From the sequence record MW584198.1: a stretch of DNA of 40,147 nucleotides; one strand, written 5' to 3'. A model generated the notes under the pieces. It did not search any database, was not told the origin of the DNA, and saw only the letters and a program-made list of their open reading frames with translations. The DNA is from Mycobacterium phage prophiGD43A-2. Made by a program: the position numbers and the translations under genes. Below are positions 1 to 6,858 of the stretch, one piece after another. Position 1 is the first letter of the stretch, and the number at the start of each line of letters is the position of its first letter.

Positions 1-40
1 GTAATGAATAGGTCAGGGGTTCGATTCCCCTGGGTGGCTC
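1..40 (+). repeat. attL core. 40-bp direct repeat identical to 40108..40147 with tRNA 3'-half features (T-arm AGGGG-TTCGATT-CCCCT, acceptor GGGTGGC)
   Basis: Exact 40/40 identity with the window's last 40 nt. It contains a canonical T-loop TTCGATT flanked by a 5-bp stem and a 7-nt acceptor strand. Confidence 0.85.
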
Positions 41-298
41 TGGGTCTGGCTGGGAGTCGTCCTTGCCGTCGATCAGCCATCGCGGCGAAACGCCGCACAT
101 CACCGCGATTTCGTTGAGCACGAACTTCTTGGGTGGGGCACCAGCATCACGGCACCATCTTGACGCCGTACCACGGCTTATCTCGAACTTCTCGACCAAA
201 TCGCCGTGCTTGAGCCCGCCATGATCTAGCGCCATCTGAATGCGCCACCCGAGTGTCAGCGGTGGTATGGCGCCGCTGACGTGTGCCTGCTCCGTCAT
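1..298 (-). CDS. Prophage immunity repressor, HTH protein. Its 3' end runs through attL and out of the window, so it is a host-junction-truncated form
   Basis: ATG at complement 298..296 is preceded by GGAGG 8 nt upstream and a TTGACG..TACTGT promoter-like pair. The translation is MTEQAHVSGAIPPLTLGWRIQMALDHGGLKHGDLVEKFEISRGTASRWCRDAGAPPKKFVLNEIAVMCGVSPRWLIDGKDDSQPDPEPPRGIEPLTYSL with no stop before the window edge. It has an XRE-type HTH (GTASRWCRDAG). It is not in the ORF track because it runs off the window. Confidence 0.75.
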   Translation of the reverse strand, partial: MTEQAHVSGAIPPLTLGWRIQMALDHGGLKHGDLVEKFEISRGTASRWCRDAGAPPKKFVLNEIAVMCGVSPRWLIDGKDDSQPDPEPPRGIEPLTYSL

Positions 299-431
299 GC
301 CTGAAACCTCCTGTTGTGGCATGACAAACAGTATTGGCGCATGACTGACATTCGTCAAGGTGAATCGATACCGCAGGACATGCATATGTCGAACAGTTGA
401 CAATTACAGCCATGTAAGTCAAATTGGTGCA
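299..431. promoter_or_regulatory. Divergent rep/cro promoter-operator region with low GC. It has -35/-10-like hexamers on both strands, the palindrome GACATGCATATGTC and the repeats GCATGAC
   Basis: GC is about 45%, against about 66% elsewhere. On the minus strand TTGACG-19nt-TACTGT lies upstream of the rep GGAGG. A TTGACA hexamer sits at 397..402 upstream of cro. There is an inverted repeat GACAT-GCAT-ATGTC at 378..391. Confidence 0.6.
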
Positions 432-635
432 ATGCATCAAAACGGCGTAGTTGATGAACTGATTACCAGCACGTGTGCTGGCCAGATTCTCAAGAAGTCC
501 GGTCGAACCGTGGTTCGTCACGCCGAGGCTGGGCGCATCCCGATTGCGGCCAGGCTCCCTGGCCCCAACGGGGCATATCTATTCAGCCGTCACGTGATTG
601 AAGAGTTGGCACGCACCCTGGCCGTCGCTTCGTGA
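432..635 (+). CDS. Cro-like / excisionase-family (HTH_17, MerR-like) DNA-binding protein
   Basis: A 67-aa product, MHQNGVVDELITSTCAGQILKKSGRTVVRHAEAGRIPIAARLP.., matches the Xis/HTH_17 pattern. It is divergent from the repressor. A GTG start at 360 is the alternative. Confidence 0.6.
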   Translation: MHQNGVVDELITSTCAGQILKKSGRTVVRHAEAGRIPIAARLPGPNGAYLFSRHVIEELARTLAVAS

Positions 636-850
636 CCGTTCGGATGCGATCAACCCGGCTGCGTGATGGGCTCGTTGCCCTCGCAGCTGGGGTTCTGTGC
701 TGCCTTGATGAGTTGGAGAAGGCCTTTCATGAGCTAGGCGCGGACTGTCGCGCCGGTGCCCAGGTACTCACCGAACTCCTCGTAGATCTTCTTACCCCTT
801 GGCCTTCGCAAGACGCCGCCGATCACGCCAGTGAGGGCCACCAAGACTGA
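632..850 (+). CDS. Hypothetical protein (GTG start, GTGA overlap with cro stop)
   Basis: 72-aa ORF translationally coupled to the upstream gene. There is no recognisable domain. Confidence 0.35.
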   Translation: MTVRMRSTRLRDGLVALAAGVLCCLDELEKAFHELGADCRAGAQVLTELLVDLLTPWPSQDAADHASEGHQD

Positions 851-966
851 TCTGCCCGCAAGACAACTGAATACGGAAATACCCCAGCGGCCGGGCTCAA
901 TTTCCCGCCAAGAAAATCCACACCCGGACCGCTGGGGCCACTGCAACCAGGATAGGAGAACCTGGC

Positions 967-1263
967 ATGTCCCACCGTATCCCCGATAGATATCAGCGTG
1001 TCGGCGGCGTCCGCGCGGCCATCATGCGACACGCATTTTGGACGGTCGCCGCGCTAGCCCTTGTCTTTGGGCTGGTGATGCTATCCGCCCACCAGTACCC
1101 GCAATTCGTTATCTGCATGGCGCTCATGGTGGCCGCGTCCTGCATCGATCTACGGGTGCACCGTCGTGGCCGGTACCGCGATCGCGCCGGGGTGCTGCTG
1201 TTCATCGCCGTAATGGCCATCGTTGTCACCGGCGTGTTCGCGCAGGTCGGGGTGAACGCATGA
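967..1263 (+). CDS. Small membrane protein (3 predicted TM helices)
   Basis: GGAGAA RBS 7 nt upstream. It has hydrophobic segments FWTVAALALVFGLVMLSA, FVICMALMVAASCI and VLLFIAVMAIVVTGVFA. Confidence 0.65.
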   Translation: MSHRIPDRYQRVGGVRAAIMRHAFWTVAALALVFGLVMLSAHQYPQFVICMALMVAASCIDLRVHRRGRYRDRAGVLLFIAVMAIVVTGVFAQVGVNA

Positions 1264-1568
1264 GCTTCACATTCGACCCCGCGCCCGAATTCGACTCTGC
1301 CATGGCTGCATTCGATAAGGCAGAGCAGGCGTGCGCCCTGACAGCGGGCGATGTGACCTTGCGTGCTGACATCGCCGAACTGCTCGAAGCGCTACCGATG
1401 CGCGAGCGACGGCGAGCGTGGGTCCAAGCTACCGAAGACGCCGGTACCGACCCACGAAACGGCTGGTACCTGTTCGCCGGGGCGATCAGCGAGGCCGCGC
1501 TAACGGACTTCTTCACCGATCGGGACGCACGGCCTACGGCTAGCGCCGTGCTCATGGAGGCGGTCTAA
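1260..1568 (+). CDS. Hypothetical protein
   Basis: ATGA start/stop overlap with the upstream gene. 102 aa, MSFTFDPAPEFDSAMAAFDKAEQ... Confidence 0.55.
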   Translation: MSFTFDPAPEFDSAMAAFDKAEQACALTAGDVTLRADIAELLEALPMRERRRAWVQATEDAGTDPRNGWYLFAGAISEAALTDFFTDRDARPTASAVLMEAV

Positions 1569-2317
1569 TGCAGAAGCCCACCAAGGCATTTGCCGACATG
1601 GTGCTTGAACTCGCGGACAACCTAGAGGCAGTCCTTAACGAGATGTACCCGGACGGCCAGCTTATCCCTGTGTTCGTCAGCCCCGAATCGCTGCGCGCGG
1701 AGGCGCGAGACCTCACGCGGAATGCCGAGGATACTCAGCGTTCAGTCGAACCATCCTTAGCGCCAGTCCGTTTCGCGCCCCTGTATCCAGTCACCTTGTA
1801 TCAGGCCGGGTGCACCTCGTGCGGCGCCGTCGTTGATGACTATGGCGACTACTCCTGCCTTGAGGACGACGAAGCAGTGGGATACGTCTGCGACCGCCTG
1901 GGATGGTTCGAAACGACACGGAGCGAGCCAACGCCGACACCCGAGATGCCCAATCTCGTTACCGTGCATACGGTCGAGCTGCTGTGCCCGGACTGCCAGC
2001 GCTGCGAAGTCTGCGGCGCCTGCAATCCCGCTGAGATTGACGAACATCTGGTGTGCGTCGAGCACGAAGACCATGACTTTAGTGATGCCCCAATCGATGT
2101 CGCCGAGGTGGGCTCACCGACCGGCGACCAGCCGGTCGGTGAGCATCCCCCGATCGATACGTACGACCTGGTGCCGATGGAGCTTCGGCTCCGGGCGCTT
2201 GTCGCCGTGAGAGGCGCAAGCGAGGCGCTGGCCAACCTTATCGGCGTCGATCTGTTCCCGGATTTCACAAGCGATTTCGCGGCGCTTCTGCGCTTGCCGA
2301 TCGCCCCAATCAACTAG
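1568..2317 (+). CDS. Hypothetical Cys-rich protein (multiple CxxC pairs)
   Basis: TAATG overlap with the upstream gene. 249 aa with CTSCG, CPDCQRCEVCGAC and VCVEHEDH motifs suggesting metal binding. Confidence 0.6.
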   Translation: MQKPTKAFADMVLELADNLEAVLNEMYPDGQLIPVFVSPESLRAEARDLTRNAEDTQRSVEPSLAPVRFAPLYPVTLYQAGCTSCGAVVDDYGDYSCLEDDEAVGYVCDRLGWFETTRSEPTPTPEMPNLVTVHTVELLCPDCQRCEVCGACNPAEIDEHLVCVEHEDHDFSDAPIDVAEVGSPTGDQPVGEHPPIDTYDLVPMELRLRALVAVRGASEALANLIGVDLFPDFTSDFAALLRLPIAPIN

Positions 2318-2332
2318 CGGGGAGACCCTTTC

Positions 2333-2728
2333 ATGTCGCGTTCGGAAGACCCTTTCATCCTGGAGTTGCAAGCCGGTGCCAGCGCGACCGGCGAAATACA
2401 CTCCTTCACAACCGAATCCATCGAGATACGCGGAACCTTCACCCTCGGCCAAGGGCTCGTATTACGCCCCGGTGCAAAGGTTTACATCCTTGCCGACGAC
2501 GACGCGGTGGATGTCATCAACGGATTCATTGCCGACGCCGAGGTAGCTGCCGAAGAGGGCGCGGCCGAGAAGGCTGTGCATGCCGCCGTCGATTCGTTCG
2601 CCGACGAGGTGATCGAGGCTGTGAAAGACGCTGTAAGCCAGATAGATCCCTCGTTGGCCGACAGCGCGCAGAAGGTCGCCGACGCGCTGATCGCAGCCAT
2701 TGAGAAGGCTAAGCGGGGCGACGAATGA
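2333..2728 (+). CDS. Hypothetical acidic Ala-rich protein
   Basis: GGGGAG RBS. 131-aa ORF in a tightly packed + strand operon. Confidence 0.55.
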   Translation: MSRSEDPFILELQAGASATGEIHSFTTESIEIRGTFTLGQGLVLRPGAKVYILADDDAVDVINGFIADAEVAAEEGAAEKAVHAAVDSFADEVIEAVKDAVSQIDPSLADSAQKVADALIAAIEKAKRGDE

Positions 2729-3873
2729 AATTCGCGATGGATACCGATCTGCTCGCTGAAACCATCACGGCGGCAATCAGTTCCCTACCGGCCCGGCCAA
2801 CGTCCCCGGTCCTGGGCGGGGTGTTGGTTGAGGTCGGTATCGGCTCGGTCACAATGTCGAGCTTCAACTACGAGCGCGCCACCAAGCGCACTGCCGCCGC
2901 GATGGACGTTACCGAGCCCGACGCAGCCGTCGTGTCAGGAAAACTGCTGGCCGCGATCGGCGGCAACCTACCCCGCAACAAGGACGCCACCGTTGATGTC
3001 AGCGGGCAGGAAATGGTTATCACAGCGGGCCGCACCGCCTTTCGCCTCCCGCTGTTGCATGGCGAGGACTTCCCCGAACTGCCGATCATGAAGCCCCGAG
3101 AGGATGCCATCGGCACGGTTGACGGCGACACGTTCGCCGAGGCCGTACAGGTCATCGGCGCCTTGGCCTCCACCGAAGAGCAACCCGCCAAGCTGACCGG
3201 AATCAATCTCACGTTCAGCCCGGATGGGTTGTGGCTGTGCGCCACTGACCGCTACATCGTGGGTAGGCGCCGTCTGGACTGGAACGGCAGCGTCCAGACA
3301 CAGACCCTCGTACCGGCTGCCGATCTGCTGGCCACGATCAAGGCCGCAGCCGGTTCCGCGCCGGAGAACATCGAAATCCTGTTGCGTGGCAGCTCAATGT
3401 TCGGCCTGCGCACCCCATCAACCACAGTCATGACCCGTTGCCTTGCTGAGGAATTCCCCGCCATGGAAACGGTGCTGACCCCGGCTGTCTACGCGGCTAC
3501 GTCCACGGTGGCCACCGCCGAACTCGCGGACATGCTGCGCCGGGCCTCGTCCATCGCTGATGACGGCAACGCCCAAATCGATATCGAGGTTGACGCTGGG
3601 GGCCTGGCGGTCACCACCACCAAGAGCGCTACCGGCAAGGTCAACGACAGCATCGCCGCTGTGCACCAGGGCGATTACCGCCGCGTCGCGTTGTCTGCTC
3701 GCCGCCTCAATAGCGCCCTGTCGGTGGTCAACGACCACGAGGTCACCTTGGGATTCCGCGAGACCGGCCAACTGGTGAGCATCCATCCCGGCGCACTGGA
3801 ACGCACCAACGACCCGGTTGACCTGCTGGCGTGCAACAACTTTGCACTGCTCATCGGAATCCGCGGGACGTAA
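2725..3873 (+). CDS. DNA polymerase III beta (sliding clamp) DnaN-like protein
   Basis: 382 aa. The N-terminus MKFAMDTDLLAETITAAISSLPARPTSPVLGGVLVEV...VVSGKLLAAIGGNLP...GEDFPELP follows the DnaN domain I pattern. ATGA overlap with the upstream gene. Confidence 0.7.
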   Translation: MKFAMDTDLLAETITAAISSLPARPTSPVLGGVLVEVGIGSVTMSSFNYERATKRTAAAMDVTEPDAAVVSGKLLAAIGGNLPRNKDATVDVSGQEMVITAGRTAFRLPLLHGEDFPELPIMKPREDAIGTVDGDTFAEAVQVIGALASTEEQPAKLTGINLTFSPDGLWLCATDRYIVGRRRLDWNGSVQTQTLVPAADLLATIKAAAGSAPENIEILLRGSSMFGLRTPSTTVMTRCLAEEFPAMETVLTPAVYAATSTVATAELADMLRRASSIADDGNAQIDIEVDAGGLAVTTTKSATGKVNDSIAAVHQGDYRRVALSARRLNSALSVVNDHEVTLGFRETGQLVSIHPGALERTNDPVDLLACNNFALLIGIRGT

Positions 3874-3878
3874 CGCCG

Positions 3879-4127
3879 ATGCCCGCAACCCCGCACAGCG
3901 CCCGCGTCTTCATCGTGGTTGACCCGGTGCAGGACTACGAAGAGTCATTGCAGATCCTCGGCGTCTTCGGATCGCTCAAGGCAGCGCAGGTCTCGGCACC
4001 GCGACTGATGAAAGTCGCATGGCGGTACGAACCGTATCGCACTGCCGAGGTTCAGGAATGGCGCGGCGACACCCTCGTAAACACCTGGACCTATCACCCC
4101 GATCGCGGCTGGCAGTTCACCGCATGA
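3879..4127 (+). CDS. Hypothetical protein
   Basis: 82-aa ORF starting MPATPHSARVFIVVDPVQDYEESLQ immediately after the dnaN-like stop. Confidence 0.5.
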   Translation: MPATPHSARVFIVVDPVQDYEESLQILGVFGSLKAAQVSAPRLMKVAWRYEPYRTAEVQEWRGDTLVNTWTYHPDRGWQFTA

Positions 4128-4155
4128 CCAACACCGAAATGGAGGCAGCAGCAGC

Positions 4156-4365
4156 ATGACCGTAACCTCAGGCCCATTCTTCAACGTCTTTGACGAAGAC
4201 GGTAGGCACCGCCGCGAGCTACGCGAGCGGGCACTGTATTCAGCCACACTCCTGCACTGCGAGACCGGCGACACCATGGCCATCCTCGACCGCGAGACGG
4301 CCGTCAAGGACGTGCTGGCCACCGCCCAGCAGTTCTATGACTGGATCGCCCAGGAGGCCGGGTGA
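4156..4365 (+). CDS. Hypothetical protein
   Basis: GGAGG RBS at -10. 69 aa. Confidence 0.55.
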   Translation: MTVTSGPFFNVFDEDGRHRRELRERALYSATLLHCETGDTMAILDRETAVKDVLATAQQFYDWIAQEAG

Positions 4366-5072
4366 TCACCCACAGTGGCGGCGCTACCCGCTTCTTCTGG
4401 TCCTGGCTCATCGGCTCGGCCGCGTTCTCCATCCTCGGCGTTGTCACGCACGCGGTGCTCGGTAGTGCACGATCATCGCTGATCGCCTCGGTGCTCGCGG
4501 TCGGCATCGTGGTAATCCAGCTGTGCGCCACCTACGGCGTGCACGCCTTGGTTCAGGAACGCATCACCGGCGCCGCATACCGATGGGCGCTCGCGATCGC
4601 CGTTGCACTCGCGCTCGGCGCGTTCGTGCTCAACTTTGTTGCTCTGCAAGACCTGGTGATCACCTGGGCAGGGACCGCGCCTGCGATCGCCTGGATTGTG
4701 CCCCTAATCATCGATCTGGGTATGACGGCAAGCACCCTGGCGATACTCGCGCTCACCGAAGCTCAACGCGCCGAGCAGCTGCACACACCCGCGCACCCTG
4801 ACGCACAAGCGGCGCCGTCCGTTCATGTCGAGGTGCACAACACCGTGCACGCCGACGCGCACGCCGCGCAGGACGGCGCACACGCTGCGCACGGCGATGC
4901 GCACCTAGTCGCCGCACAGCGCATCATCGCGCAAGGGGCGGTGCGTATCGAGGCGGAACGGATCGCGGCGGTGCTGGCCGTGCACGCCCAGGGCGTCAAC
5001 TCCGCGAGCATCATCGGACGGCGAACCAACGTCCACCACAAGACCGTGCGCCGCATCTTGGACGCAGCATGA
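4362..5072 (+). CDS. Membrane protein (4 TM) with a His-rich repeat segment and a C-terminal HTH DNA-binding domain
   Basis: GTGA overlap start. The N-terminal 140 aa form four hydrophobic helices. The central segment is VHVEVHNTVHADAHAAQDGAHAAHGDAH. The C-terminus SASIIGRRTNVHHKTVRRILDAA is HTH-like. Confidence 0.6.
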   Translation: MITHSGGATRFFWSWLIGSAAFSILGVVTHAVLGSARSSLIASVLAVGIVVIQLCATYGVHALVQERITGAAYRWALAIAVALALGAFVLNFVALQDLVITWAGTAPAIAWIVPLIIDLGMTASTLAILALTEAQRAEQLHTPAHPDAQAAPSVHVEVHNTVHADAHAAQDGAHAAHGDAHLVAAQRIIAQGAVRIEAERIAAVLAVHAQGVNSASIIGRRTNVHHKTVRRILDAA

Positions 5073-5491
5073 CGGGGCAGCTGGAGCTACTGGCCCGGTG
5101 CGCACTGCCGGGCTGCCCTGACGTTGTGACAGCGGCGGGCGACGTATGCGCGGGCTGCGTCCAAGCATGCGGGCCGTACCTGGCGCGCCGCGAGCCCCGC
5201 CCCGAGGTAACACCCGAGCAGATCGCCGACGAGCTAGCCGAGCGCGACCGGGGAACCATCGCGGCCTACGCGGCCCAAGCAGCGGCGGTTGCCGACGCAC
5301 ACCCCGCCGTTGAGTGGTTGGCCAAACGGCGCATTGAGAAGCACGTCACGGTCCACCCGGAAGTGCTCAAGGTGATCGAGGCTGTGGAGGTCCGCAAGCC
5401 TAACCAGCTGTGCTGGCTGTGCGAGGAACGCCGGGCATGCACCCACATTGATGGGCGCTGGGAGTGCGATAAATGCCGGGGCATCCAATGA
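5069..5491 (+). CDS. Hypothetical Cys-rich protein (zinc-ribbon-like)
   Basis: ATGA overlap. 140 aa with CALPGCPDV..CAGCVQAC and CWLCEERRACTHIDGRWECDKC. Confidence 0.55.
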   Translation: MTGQLELLARCALPGCPDVVTAAGDVCAGCVQACGPYLARREPRPEVTPEQIADELAERDRGTIAAYAAQAAAVADAHPAVEWLAKRRIEKHVTVHPEVLKVIEAVEVRKPNQLCWLCEERRACTHIDGRWECDKCRGIQ

Positions 5492-5515
5492 CAACGGCCA
5501 GAGGTGGTGTCACCG

Positions 5516-5770
5516 ATGGCGCCTAACGCCCCTACGGGCTTGGTGCGGCGCATGTTCGCGCTCTTTCATCTGGGCGGCGTGCAGCAGAAGCGGGCCGATC
5601 GGCTGGCTGTCGCGTCTTACGTCACCTGGCGCCGTATCGGCACGACCGATGACCTCACCGAGGCCGATATCAAGGCCATCGTCGCGACGCTGGAGTACTG
5701 GCGTTTCGCCGGCCAAATCGAGTACCGGTGCCGCCGCATCGCCGAATCAATGCAGGAGGTGTCGGCGTAG
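5516..5770 (+). CDS. Hypothetical protein
   Basis: 84 aa from an ATG preceded by an AGAGGTGG RBS. A GTG at 5504 is the alternative. Confidence 0.45.
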   Translation: MAPNAPTGLVRRMFALFHLGGVQQKRADRLAVASYVTWRRIGTTDDLTEADIKAIVATLEYWRFAGQIEYRCRRIAESMQEVSA

Positions 5771-6625
5771 ATGCTCACATTCGAGGATCGCCGGAAGTGG
5801 ACCCGACTGGTATTGCGGATGCCCAGTGCTGAGCTGTCGGCGTCGTGCAAGACGGTCCTGCTGGCGCTGGAAAGCTATGCGGACTACCGCGACGGCACCG
5901 GGGCACACCCCGGCGAGGAGAACCTGTCCAAGGCCGCTGACGTGAACGTGCGCACCGTACGGCGGGCGCTAGCGACTGGGCGCGCTCTGGGGCTGATCGA
6001 ACAGACCTCGGCAGCAAACTCAAAGGCGGGCAAGGCAGCCGAATACAGCCTGACCCTGCCGGGCAGTGCAGCCGTTACGACCGGACACCCGAGTCCTGTG
6101 GACAACTCCACGACCGGACACCACAGTCCTGTGGACAACTCCACGACCGGACACCACAGTCCTGTCGAAACAGTCCACGACCGGACAAATGCGACGCCAC
6201 GACCGGACACTGGTGTCCTCCCACCTAAGCCCTACACCAATAACCTAGGGGTGTTACGTAACTGGGGTACGTCACCAGCGCCGCGCATCACCGAGGACAC
6301 ACACCCTGAGCCTCCCTCGCGGTTCTGTGATGAGCACCCGATGGGCACTCGGGGCAACTGCGGCAATTGCGCAAACGCGCGAACTGCGTTCAACGCCTGG
6401 CAAGCCCACCAAGCCGTCCGCGATGTCGAAATCGCCCAAGCCGACACCCGGCGCCGACACGAGCAGCGCGTCAACTGCCCGTGGTGCCACGGCACCAACG
6501 TCCGCGACATCGGGGACGACCTCGTGGAGAAATGCGACCACCAGAGGCCCCCACAGGCCCGTAGAACCCTCTCGCTGGTGCCACCACTGCCGGGCGGGCC
6601 TGAAAACGTCAGAGCGGCGCAATGA
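5771..6625 (+). CDS. Winged-helix/HTH DNA-binding protein, candidate replication initiator. It has internal tandem repeats and a C-terminal Cys4 cluster
   Basis: The N-terminus KTVLLALESYADYRDGTGAHPGEENLSKAADVNVRTVRRALATGRALGLIEQ is a winged-helix-like fold. Repeated TTGH(H/P)SPVDNS peptides are encoded by 33-bp DNA iterons. The C-terminus carries CGNCAN...CPWCHG. Confidence 0.6.
   Translation: MLTFEDRRKWTRLVLRMPSAELSASCKTVLLALESYADYRDGTGAHPGEENLSKAADVNVRTVRRALATGRALGLIEQTSAANSKAGKAAEYSLTLPGSAAVTTGHPSPVDNSTTGHHSPVDNSTTGHHSPVETVHDRTNATPRPDTGVLPPKPYTNNLGVLRNWGTSPAPRITEDTHPEPPSRFCDEHPMGTRGNCGNCANARTAFNAWQAHQAVRDVEIAQADTRRRHEQRVNCPWCHGTNVRDIGDDLVEKCDHQRPPQARRTLSLVPPLPGGPENVRAAQ
6075..6221 (+). 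repeat. Iteron array. Five copies of ACGACCGGACA with 33/33/34/22-bp spacing, and three units carry the palindrome CCACAGTCCTGTGG. Candidate phage origin of replication
   Basis: ACGACCGGACA starts at 6077, 6110, 6143, 6177 and 6199. Full 33-bp unit copies lie at 6077..6109, 6110..6142 and 6143..6176. Confidence 0.55.
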
Positions 6626-6858
6626 GCGCCCATTCCGGCCACGCCGAGGCCGACGAGCCCACCACGTTCGAGCGTGGCCCTGGTAGGCGGCGCCGCAGCG
6701 CACCGGGGCCGGTCTACGACGCCTACGCCGTGACAGGAGCCATCAACCGGCCATGCACCAACTGCGGCGCCCAACCGCGCCAGTACTGCTACGCGCCCAA
6801 CGGCGCCGAAAGCAAGATCCCATGCCTGCAACGACTCTCAGAGAGGCAAGAGAGCTGA
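6622..6858 (+). CDS. Hypothetical Cys-containing protein
   Basis: ATGA overlap with the upstream gene. 78 aa. Confidence 0.5.
   Translation: MSAHSGHAEADEPTTFERGPGRRRRSAPGPVYDAYAVTGAINRPCTNCGAQPRQYCYAPNGAESKIPCLQRLSERQES

What the first reader, a model, noticed from the sequence alone, without database searches (positions are those of the whole stretch)
1..298. Integration-dependent immunity: the repressor gene spans the attachment core, so the prophage makes a C-terminally altered repressor and the virus a longer, -IAA-tagged one
The HTH repressor ORF (start 298, minus strand) has no stop before it crosses the 40-bp attL core. Joining the window end to its start (the excised circular attP form) continues the frame for 29 more codons (..LVGRTRSFRHTITSARNVAPPSDPDRIAA*) to a TGA at about 40021..40019. 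This gives a 128-aa viral form against at least 99 phage-encoded residues in the prophage form. That mirrors the 136/103-aa gp33 forms of mycobacteriophage BPs, whose viral C terminus is an ssrA-like degradation tag. The divergent cro-like gene and rep-then-int orientation also match that class.
Basis: partly seen in the sequence, partly recalled or inferred. Interest (0 to 1): 0.65.

Follow-up and report, generated by a model that had tools for sequence, protein, structure and literature searches.

The report
Known integration-dependent phage repressor switch
The window is a Mycobacterium abscessus prophage whose repressor gene is cut by the integration site, so the integrated and free forms make different repressor tails; this is real, but it has already been published for this phage group.

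Summary
Bases 1-40 and 40108-40147 are an identical 40-bp core, the 3' part of a host tRNA-Thr(CGT). The minus-strand HTH repressor ORF from ATG 298 runs open through the core. Joining the window ends gives a 128-aa protein ending -PSDPDRIAA, with its TGA at 40021..40019.

I found the host junction in a genome contig identical to the window. The prophage form is 106 aa: 99 phage-encoded residues plus RVNCSTD read from the tRNA antisense. So the two forms have different C termini.

The repressor is homologous to BPs gp33 (33% identity) and the integrase to BPs gp32. The integrase also ends -AA. A second immunity type in the same phage cluster reads the core in another frame, and a 1-nt indel returns it to the same -DRIAA tail.

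The window is a cluster MabB prophage at attB-2, and its length matches prophiGD43A-2. Dedrick et al. 2021 (mBio) describe integration-dependent immunity for MabB, including the seven host-derived residues and the -AA tails. GenBank records of near-identical phages carry the same note.

Tag-dependent degradation has not been tested for this phage. Low interest.

The parts
1..40 (+). attL common core. It is the 3' 40 nt of host tRNA-Thr(CGT), from anticodon position 2 to the 3' end. The rebuilt tRNA extends 33 nt to the left of the window.
   Evidence: Identical repeat. ARAGORN finds tRNA-Thr(cgt) at L004 5536-5609, which is window -33..40. L004 is 100% identical to the window over 6.6 kb.
40108..40147 (+). 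attR common core, the second copy of the 40-bp tRNA 3' segment.
   Evidence: 100% identical to 1-40. The same 40 nt are present in the attP regions of six related phages.
1..298 (-). Immunity repressor (HTH), the part shared by both forms: 99 codons from ATG 298 plus the first base of codon 100. The prophage form continues 7 codons into the tRNA antisense (RVNCSTD, then TGA), giving 106 aa.
   Evidence: Family matches are weak Pfam HTH_31/HTH_3/Phage_CI_repr and PHROG 2328 'transcriptional repressor' at E 4e-30. It is 33% identical to BPs gp33. The 106-aa protein is called on 7 contigs.
40019..40107 (-). 3' end of the viral (attP) form of the repressor: the rest of codon 100, 28 further codons ending -PSDPDRIAA, and the TGA at 40021..40019. 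Integration separates this segment from the gene.
   Evidence: The same tail is in phiGD34-2 gene 39. The exact 128-aa protein WP_131807291.1 is on contig L052. The tail is conserved across the two immunity types.
299..431 (.). Divergent regulatory region (46% G+C). It holds an AGGAGG Shine-Dalgarno at 311..306 (minus), a promoter-like site on the minus strand (-35 TTGACG from 358, -10 AATACT ending at 330), and the inverted repeat GACATgcatATGTC at 377-390, a candidate operator.
   Evidence: the motif is unique in the window; 0.02 expected by chance. BPs has CGACATATGTCG just upstream of its gene 34, the 12-bp palindrome operator half-site of PMC4557955. The operator role here is inferred.
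432..635 (+). Divergently transcribed 67-aa HTH protein in the Cro position. It is annotated 'excise' or 'helix-turn-helix DNA binding protein' in relatives.
   Evidence: Weak Pfam HTH_17 match, E 0.0011, below the gathering score. Annotations. No similarity to BPs gp34.
39807..40019 (-). 70-aa ORF directly after the viral repressor stop (TGATG overlap). Function unknown; Cys/His-rich.
   Evidence: PHROG 22760 at E 3e-22, unknown function. Present in all related phages between rep and int.
39556..39810 (-). 84-aa ORF overlapping the previous ORF by 4 nt. Function unknown.
   Evidence: No family match. Its position is conserved in relatives.
38422..39432 (-). Tyrosine integrase ending -ADSDAA. 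Relatives annotate the 336-aa version; an alternative start at ATG 39315 gives 297 aa.
   Evidence: Pfam Phage_integrase at E 5e-21. PHROG 1. 30% identical to BPs gp32, E 2e-24. C terminus.
38378..38417 (+). Third, diverged (83%) copy of the tRNA-Thr 3' segment, 4 nt after the integrase stop. Probably a remnant of a phage-borne tRNA-Thr. It is not one of the current att sites.
   Evidence: The T-stem changes are compensatory (AGGGG/CCCCT to AGCGG/CCGCT). prophiT36-2b has a complete tRNA-Thr(cgt) at this position. ARAGORN finds no tRNA in the window.

Best explanation
The window is a complete cluster MabB prophage of Mycobacterium abscessus, bounded by attL and attR at the tRNA-Thr(CGT) site attB-2. 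It carries an integration-dependent immunity switch of the BPs/Brujita/Charlie class.

In the free circular genome, one leftward operon reads rep, orf70, orf84 and int, and the 40-bp attP core lies in codons 87-100 of rep. That form makes a 128-aa repressor ending -RIAA. By analogy with the tested mycobacteriophage systems, this ssrA-like tail targets it for proteolysis, so it cannot establish immunity. The integrase (ending -SDAA) is presumably also unstable, which would set the frequency of lysogeny.

Integration moves the last 29 codons to the far end of the prophage. Translation then runs 7 codons into the antisense of the tRNA and stops at a TGA in the D-arm. The result is a 106-aa repressor without the tag, presumed stable, which represses the divergent early promoter, probably through the GACAT-N4-ATGTC repeat at 377-390.

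Shown here: the anatomy, both protein forms, the host junction, the homology to BPs, and the conservation of the tail. Inferred: degradation, inactivity of the long form, co-transcription, and the operator.
For: - **Core and reading frame:**
- **Host junction:** tRNA-Thr and the 106-aa prophage form are seen in a contig 100% identical to the window.
- **attP form exists in real data:**
  - phiGD34-2 is deposited as a phage genome, separately from its prophage record prophiGD34-2. Its rep region (window 1-1200) is 98.3% identical and its int-side region (window 38300-40147) 95.0%. It has int, two ORFs and an unbroken repressor ending -DRIAA.
  - The exact 128-aa protein is on a 39.7-kb contig that matches the joined window at 100%.
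  - Close variants are on 40.4-kb contigs.
- **Homology:** rep is 33% identical to BPs gp33 (E 4e-13), including the core-encoded residues. Int is 30% identical to BPs gp32. Homologues include cluster P repressors, and Gordonia phage Phishy whose repressor ends -LAA.
- **Selection on the tail:** MabB phages of the other immunity type read the core in another frame, and a 1-nt indel returns them to the same ...PSDPDRIAA.
- **Operon signs:** TGATG and ATGA overlaps. No terminator-like site between attP and int.
- **Literature:** Dedrick 2021 (PMC8092301) states that MabB phages at attB-2 use this system, add seven host-derived residues, and have -AA tails on Rep and Int. The mechanism was tested in BPs (PMC4557955, PMC9262239).
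Against: - No experiment on a MabB repressor was found. Instability of the 128-aa form and activity of the 106-aa form are by analogy only.
- The open frame alone is not statistically unusual in G+C-rich DNA.
- G+C at the third codon position in the 29-codon extension (0.62) is not clearly coding-like.
- Int is separated from rep by two ORFs and a gap of 124-240 bp, so co-transcription is unproven.
- The integrase tail -SDAA lacks the hydrophobic residue of canonical -LAA.
- The divergent gene is unrelated to BPs Cro.
Confidence: 0.87

Rival explanations
1. [quoted passage not shown] Both repressor forms are stable and active, and immunity does not depend on integration.
For: No functional data exist for MabB phages. 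BPs gp33(136) binds DNA as well as gp33(103) does in vitro (PMC4557955 abstract), so the long form need not be inactive as a DNA binder.
Against: The -PSDPDRIAA tail is kept across two immunity types by a frame-restoring indel. The integrase also ends -AA. A homologous Gordonia phage repressor ends -LAA. In the homologous BPs system the long form is degraded and gives no immunity.
Confidence: 0.08
2. The frame across the join is a chance open frame in G+C-rich DNA. The true viral repressor is not this 128-aa product.
For: About a 1 in 3 chance of 42 stop-free codons at this composition (my estimate). G+C at the third codon position of the extension is unremarkable.
Against: The stop overlaps the start of the next gene. 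PHROG 2328 aligns to residues 2-121, including residues beyond the core. The tail is conserved at the protein level despite a frame difference upstream. BPs gp33 aligns through the core-encoded segment.
Confidence: 0.03
3. The two window ends belong to two different elements integrated in tandem at the tRNA, as the third core-like copy at 38378-38417 might suggest. Joining them would then create an artificial gene.
For: A third tRNA-Thr 3'-like copy lies next to int. Tandem MabN+MabB prophages at attB-2 are documented in strain T36 (PMC9934374).
Against: The outer copies are 100% identical, while the middle one is 83% and has no tRNA 5' half. Phage genomes and contigs carry int, orf, orf and rep contiguously across attP. 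phiGD34-2 lacks the middle copy yet has the same join. No other integrase turned up in the parts of the window I examined; I did not screen the whole window.
Confidence: 0.02

Closest known systems
Cluster MabB prophages of M. abscessus at attB-2: prophiGD34-2/phiGD34-2, prophi62-1, and probably prophiGD43A-2 itself (Dedrick et al. 2021, mBio, PMC8092301)
   Same: The immunity region is 98% identical in DNA. The repressor, attP core, tRNA-Thr target, int cassette and -DRIAA tail are the same. GenBank notes 'attP within the immunity repressor'. The paper states that seven residues are added from the bacterial sequence. The window length of 40,147 bp equals that listed for prophiGD43A-2.
   Different: Essentially nothing differs. 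The deposited annotations start the repressor at ATG 385 or TTG 403 (163 aa viral form), whereas the evidence here favours ATG 298 (128 and 106 aa). The polymorphic-toxin cassette differs between members.
Mycobacteriophage BPs gp33/gp32 integration-dependent immunity (Broussard et al. 2013; Villanueva et al. 2015, PMC4557955)
   Same: The repressor is homologous (33% identity) and so is the tyrosine integrase (30%). attP lies inside rep, at a tRNA 3' end read antisense in the same frame (PEGFEPPTFCL against PRGIEPLTYSL). The long viral and short prophage forms are 136/103 aa against 128/106 aa. A divergent gene follows, and a GACAT...ATGTC inverted repeat sits upstream of it.
   Different: BPs int directly overlaps rep; here two ORFs intervene. 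The BPs stop is created at the junction base; here 7 host-derived codons are added. BPs targets tRNA-Arg; this phage targets tRNA-Thr. The BPs tail is -DKAS; here it is the more canonical -IAA. The Cro-position proteins are unrelated. The function has been tested in BPs but not here.
Cluster P mycobacteriophages (Malithi, Donovan, Phayonce) and Gordonia phages Phishy and Ewald
   Same: Their repressors are homologous (34-71% identity), with the same rep-then-int order. The Phishy repressor ends -LAA. Cluster P is listed among integration-dependent immunity users (PMC9262239).
   Different: They have different hosts and att sites. Malithi has no -AA tail. I did not check their attP positions here.

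Membership tests
Integration-dependent immunity system (Broussard 2013; features as listed in PMC9262239) | The attP common core lies inside the repressor open reading frame. | tested here: met
   The 40-bp core covers codons 87-100 of the minus-strand ORF. The same arrangement is seen in the attP-form genome phiGD34-2 and in contigs L052-L054.
Integration-dependent immunity system (Broussard 2013; features as listed in PMC9262239) | Integration gives a shorter repressor with a different C terminus, through a stop codon close to attL. | tested here: met
   The host junction in L004 gives 99 + RVNCSTD, then TGA, for 106 aa against 128 aa. This agrees with 'seven amino acids are added' for MabB.
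Integration-dependent immunity system (Broussard 2013; features as listed in PMC9262239) | [quoted passage not shown] | tested here: met
   It ends -DRIAA. The tail is conserved in six related phages. This is a sequence-level result only.
Integration-dependent immunity system (Broussard 2013; features as listed in PMC9262239) | The viral form is degraded and gives no immunity; the prophage form is stable and active. | not testable with these tools
   This needs expression, immunity and protease-dependence assays. No such data for MabB phages were found in the papers I read.
Integration-dependent immunity system (Broussard 2013; features as listed in PMC9262239) | A tyrosine integrase lies downstream of rep in the same operon and also carries a C-terminal tag. 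| tested here: inconclusive
   Same strand. The order is rep, orf70, orf84, int, with overlapping stops and starts for the first three, then a gap of 124-240 bp. No terminator-like site. Int ends -SDAA. Co-transcription itself was not shown.
Integration-dependent immunity system (Broussard 2013; features as listed in PMC9262239) | attB overlaps a host tRNA gene, and the tRNA is rebuilt at the junction. | tested here: met
   An intact tRNA-Thr(CGT) is found at attL. The same 74-nt tRNA sequence is found in the genomes of 33 species, nearly all mycobacteria.
Integration-dependent immunity system (Broussard 2013; features as listed in PMC9262239) | A Cro-like gene is transcribed divergently from the repressor across a short regulatory region. 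| tested here: met
   A 67-aa HTH protein at 432-635 (+) lies 133 bp from ATG 298. It is not homologous to BPs gp34.
BPs gp33-like repressor protein family (PHROG 2328) | Sequence homology over the full length. | tested here: met
   PHROG 2328 at E 3.9e-30, aligning residues 2-121 to profile positions 1-125 of 128. BLASTP against BPs gp33 gives E 4e-13 and 33% identity over 122 aa.
tRNA-dependent lysogeny (Guerrero-Bustamante & Hatfull 2024, PMC10865867), considered because of the tRNA-like copy next to int | A short (~10 bp) core so that the host tRNA is destroyed, with a phage-encoded tRNA of the same isotype complementing it. | tested here: not met
   The core is 40 bp and the tRNA is rebuilt intact. 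The window encodes no tRNA; only a 3' remnant is left at 38378-38417.

The most novel reading that the evidence does not exclude
The segment downstream of attP (tag codons, orf70, orf84, int) may act as a portable 'integration and degradation-tag cassette'. It is shared by MabB phages whose repressor DNA-binding modules are unrelated enough to read the same tRNA-derived core in two different frames. A 1-nt indel keeps the -PSDPDRIAA tag in frame for both. That would be direct evidence of selection on the tag itself, and of modular exchange of immunity specificity around a fixed attP. Phage-length attP-form contigs in several M. abscessus assemblies, one lacking the cro-like gene, might also indicate frequent or persistent extrachromosomal carriage.
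Probability: 0.25. Interest if true: 0.35.

Novelty: already known. Interest (0 to 1): 0.12.

Why it matters
Integration-dependent immunity is a minimal genetic switch: one recombination event both inserts the phage and switches on a stable repressor. That makes it interesting for the evolution of lysogeny. It also matters in practice, because only the truncated prophage form of such a repressor works as a selectable immunity marker. M. abscessus prophages in turn influence susceptibility to therapeutic phages. For this window, though, the system was already recognised, annotated and published, so the finding adds confirmation rather than discovery. The modest new points are the likely mis-annotated start codon and the frame-restoring conservation of the tag.

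Tried and rejected
- **Tandem elements.** I considered that the third core-like copy (38378-38417) marks two tandem elements. I rejected this: it is a diverged 3' tRNA-Thr fragment, it is absent from phiGD34-2, and attP-form genomes carry the rep-int join.
- **tRNA-dependent lysogeny.** Rejected. The core is 40 bp, the host tRNA is rebuilt, and the window has no phage tRNA.
- **Annotated longer starts (ATG 385, TTG 403).** Rejected in favour of ATG 298 on six grounds (the Shine-Dalgarno comes from the sequence):
  - an AGGAGG Shine-Dalgarno 7 nt upstream of ATG 298;
  - a promoter-like site inside the supposed N-terminal extension;
  - third-position G+C of 0.49 in the extension against 0.70 in the gene;
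  - homologue N termini and the PHROG profile begin at residue 1-2;
  - NCBI and Logan gene calls of 106 and 128 aa;
  - position 385 varies (ATG/GTG) among relatives, which is not decisive.
- **Broussard 2013.** PMC3557535 is not held, so I used PMC4557955 and PMC9262239 instead.
- **BPs record.** Accession NC_010762 is not in the collection; EU568876 worked.
- **M. abscessus attB.** The genome-contig scan for the exact tRNA did not return an M. abscessus representative. It returned 33 other species, nearly all mycobacteria, including M. chelonae. So an empty M. abscessus attB-2 was not inspected.
- **Promoter for the cro-like gene.** The consensus scan found none on the + strand. A TTGACA at 397-402 has only a poor -10 match, judged by eye.

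Full report
**1. The observation**

The first 40 bases of the window (GTAATGAATAGGTCAGGGGTTCGATTCCCCTGGGTGGCTC) recur exactly at 40108-40147. On the minus strand, an ORF from ATG 298 stays open to base 1, a run of 99 codons. It has weak but consistent helix-turn-helix matches: HTH_31, HTH_3 and Phage_CI_repr, all below the gathering score. It also has a strong match to PHROG 2328 'transcriptional repressor' (E 3.9e-30).

Joining 40107 to 1, as in an excised circle, continues the frame for 29 codons (LVGRTRSFRHTITSARNVAPPSDPDRIAA). It stops at a TGA at 40021..40019, giving 128 aa. Every coordinate and residue in the finding is correct.

An open frame of about 42 codons is not remarkable in 63% G+C DNA; I estimate roughly a 1 in 3 chance. 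The case therefore rests on the other evidence below.

**2. What the window is**

BLAST against deposited phage genomes finds Mycobacterium abscessus prophages and their lytically propagated counterparts.
- prophiGD34-2 and phiGD34-2 match window 1-1200 at 98.3% identity.
- A family of about 15 records shares the int-side region.
- In the prophage records the repressor is a split misc_feature. Its note reads 'The location of the phage attachment site (attP) within the immunity repressor ...'.

Table 1 of Dedrick et al. 2021 (mBio, PMC8092301) places these prophages in cluster MabB at attB-2. It lists prophiGD43A-2 at 40,147 bp, exactly the window length. That record (MW584198) is not in the searchable collection, so identity is inferred from length, cluster and att site.

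**3. The host junction and the prophage form**

A look-up of the neighbouring 67-aa protein returned an M. abscessus contig (GCA_000523935.1, locus L004). It is 100% identical to window 1-6635 and extends into host DNA.
- ARAGORN finds tRNA-Thr(CGT) at L004 5536-5609, which corresponds to window -33..40. The core is therefore the tRNA from anticodon position 2 to its 3' end, and the tRNA is rebuilt intact at attL.
- The same 74-nt sequence occurs in the genomes of 33 species, nearly all mycobacteria.
- In M. chelonae the sequence diverges from the phage directly after the tRNA 3' end, which places the right edge of the core at window 40.
- Reading the repressor frame into the tRNA antisense gives RVNCSTD and then TGA. 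The prophage form is therefore 106 aa.

**4. The viral form exists in real data**
- phiGD34-2 is deposited as a phage genome, separately from its prophage record. It has int, two small ORFs and an unbroken repressor gene ending ...PSDPDRIAA.
- The exact 128-aa sequence is an NCBI protein (WP_131807291.1). It lies on a 39,741-bp contig (L052) that matches the joined window ends at 100%.
- Variants differing by one to three residues lie in the interior of contigs of about 40.4 kb in other M. abscessus assemblies.
- The 106-aa form is called on seven contigs, up to 2.2 Mb long.

**5. Evidence that the tail matters**

MabB phages fall into at least two immunity types. phiGD89-1, phiGD21-1 and P3MA have a different repressor, about 40% identical in alignment. 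It reads the same 40-bp core in another frame (ATQGNRTPDLFITS instead of EPPRGIEPLTYSL). A 1-nt indel downstream returns it to the frame that ends ...PPSDPDRIAA. Even prophiT36-2b, only 81% identical overall, keeps GATCGGATCGCGGCG-TGA.

Other supporting points:
- The repressor stop overlaps the start of the next ORF (TGATG). That ORF overlaps the following one (ATGA).
- No terminator-like site lies between attP and int.
- The integrase ends -SDAA.
- A homologous Gordonia phage repressor (Phishy) ends -LAA.

**6. Relation to BPs**
- The repressor aligns with BPs gp33 at 33% identity over 122 residues (E 4e-13). The alignment includes the core-encoded stretch, PRGIEPLTYSL against PEGFEPPTFCL.
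- The integrase aligns with BPs gp32 at 30% identity (E 2e-24).
- BPs attP is annotated inside gene 33.
- The 136/103-aa forms, and the degradation of the long form, are documented in PMC4557955 and PMC9262239.

The differences are these:
- Two ORFs lie between rep and int.
- Seven host-derived residues are added, rather than a stop created at the junction.
- The target is tRNA-Thr, not tRNA-Arg.
- The Cro-position protein is unrelated. It gives a weak HTH_17 match and is annotated 'excise' in phiGD34-2.
- BPs gp33 ends -DKAS. Villanueva 2015 calls that tail ssrA-like, while Dedrick 2021 groups BPs with phages lacking such a tag. The -IAA tail here is closer to the canonical tag than BPs's own.

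**7. Start codon and regulatory region**

GenBank relatives start the repressor at ATG 385 or TTG 403. Six lines of evidence favour ATG 298:
- AGGAGG lies 7 nt upstream.
- A promoter-like site (-35 TTGACG from 358, -10 AATACT ending at 330, minus strand) lies inside the supposed extension.
- The extension has 48% G+C and third-position G+C of 0.49, against 0.70 in the gene.
- The annotated N termini of Phishy and Malithi align with residue 1.
- The PHROG profile starts at residue 2.
- Independent gene calls give 106 and 128 aa.

The inverted repeat GACATgcatATGTC at 377-390 is unique in the window, with 0.02 expected by chance. It has the same arms as the BPs operator palindrome CGACATATGTCG, which also lies just upstream of the divergent gene. 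I propose it as the operator, by inference only.

**8. Mechanism**

I am about 87% confident that this is a working integration-dependent immunity switch, as described under the best explanation.
- *Shown:* the anatomy, both protein forms, the host junction, the homology and the conservation of the tail.
- *Inferred from BPs-class experiments:* proteolysis of the tagged forms, inactivity of the long form in vivo, co-transcription of rep and int, and the operator.

**9. Novelty**

This is already known. Dedrick et al. 2021 name MabB and attB-2 among the integration-dependent systems. They describe the truncation, the seven added residues, the tRNA transcribed towards the truncated repressor, and -AA tails on Rep and Int. 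Their 2023 follow-up (PMC9934374) repeats this for MabB prophiT36-2b. The small additions from this work are the likely over-long start annotation, the frame-restoring conservation of the tag between immunity types, and the attP-form contigs in public assemblies.

Noticed in passing
window 38378-38417 (compare L015 1175-1248): A third, 83%-identical copy of the tRNA-Thr 3' segment sits 4 nt after the integrase stop, with compensatory T-stem changes (AGGGG/CCCCT to AGCGG/CCGCT). prophiT36-2b has a complete tRNA-Thr(cgt) at this spot. phiGD89-1 and phiGD21-1 have the same partial copy, and phiGD34-2 has none. It is probably a decayed phage-borne tRNA or an old att remnant.
   Followed up: partly
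L012 2988-3422, L013 2877-3299, L014 2873-3307 against window 1-298 + 40019-40107: A second MabB immunity type reads the same 40-bp attP core in a different reading frame. A 1-nt indel downstream restores the frame, so both types end in the identical ...PSDPDRIAA.
   Followed up: yes
window 299-403; L002 2412-2903; L001 2-385: GenBank annotations of close relatives start the repressor at TTG 403 (163 aa) or ATG 385. The Shine-Dalgarno, a promoter-like site, codon-position G+C, homologue N termini and independent gene calls all favour ATG 298.
   Followed up: yes
L052 (GCA_900140265.1 contig FSOL01000023.1, 39,741 bp); window 438-899: This phage-length contig carries the attP join and the exact 128-aa repressor. 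It is 100% identical to the joined window except for a clean 462-bp deletion that removes the cro-like gene and the next ORF. By my arithmetic the contig ends overlap by about 96 nt, which suggests a circular molecule. Similar 40.4-kb attP-form contigs (L053, L054) keep the cro-like gene.
   Followed up: partly
window 377-390 and 421-434; L018 3985-4013: GACATgcatATGTC is unique in the window and shares its arms with the BPs operator palindrome CGACATATGTCG. Both phages also have TTGGTGCA directly before the ATG of the divergent gene. Polymorphisms among relatives (385/386) fall inside the repeat.
   Followed up: partly
window 6072-6219: There are three to four tandem copies of a 33-bp unit (ACGACCGGACACC..AGTCCTGTGGACAACTCC), each containing a short inverted repeat. 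They look like iterons or a binding-site array in the early region.
   Followed up: no
window 36402-38375: A 500-aa and a 154-aa minus-strand ORF next to int have no Pfam match. The corresponding genes in relatives are annotated as WXG100 or polymorphic toxin and ESX-related proteins, and the cassette differs between MabB members.
   Followed up: no
window 39807-40019: The 70-aa ORF translationally coupled to the viral repressor stop is Cys/His-rich (C..C.C...C....H...C). It belongs to PHROG 22760 (unknown function) and is conserved between rep and int in all MabB relatives.
   Followed up: no
L034 336-860 (Mycobacteroides chelonae S00154): At the same tRNA-Thr in M. chelonae, the flanking DNA differs from this phage. 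An ORF still reads through the tRNA antisense in the same frame (...EPPRGIEPLTYSLRVNCSTD*), next to an ORF with an HELGH (HExxH) motif. This may be another element at the same attB.
   Followed up: no
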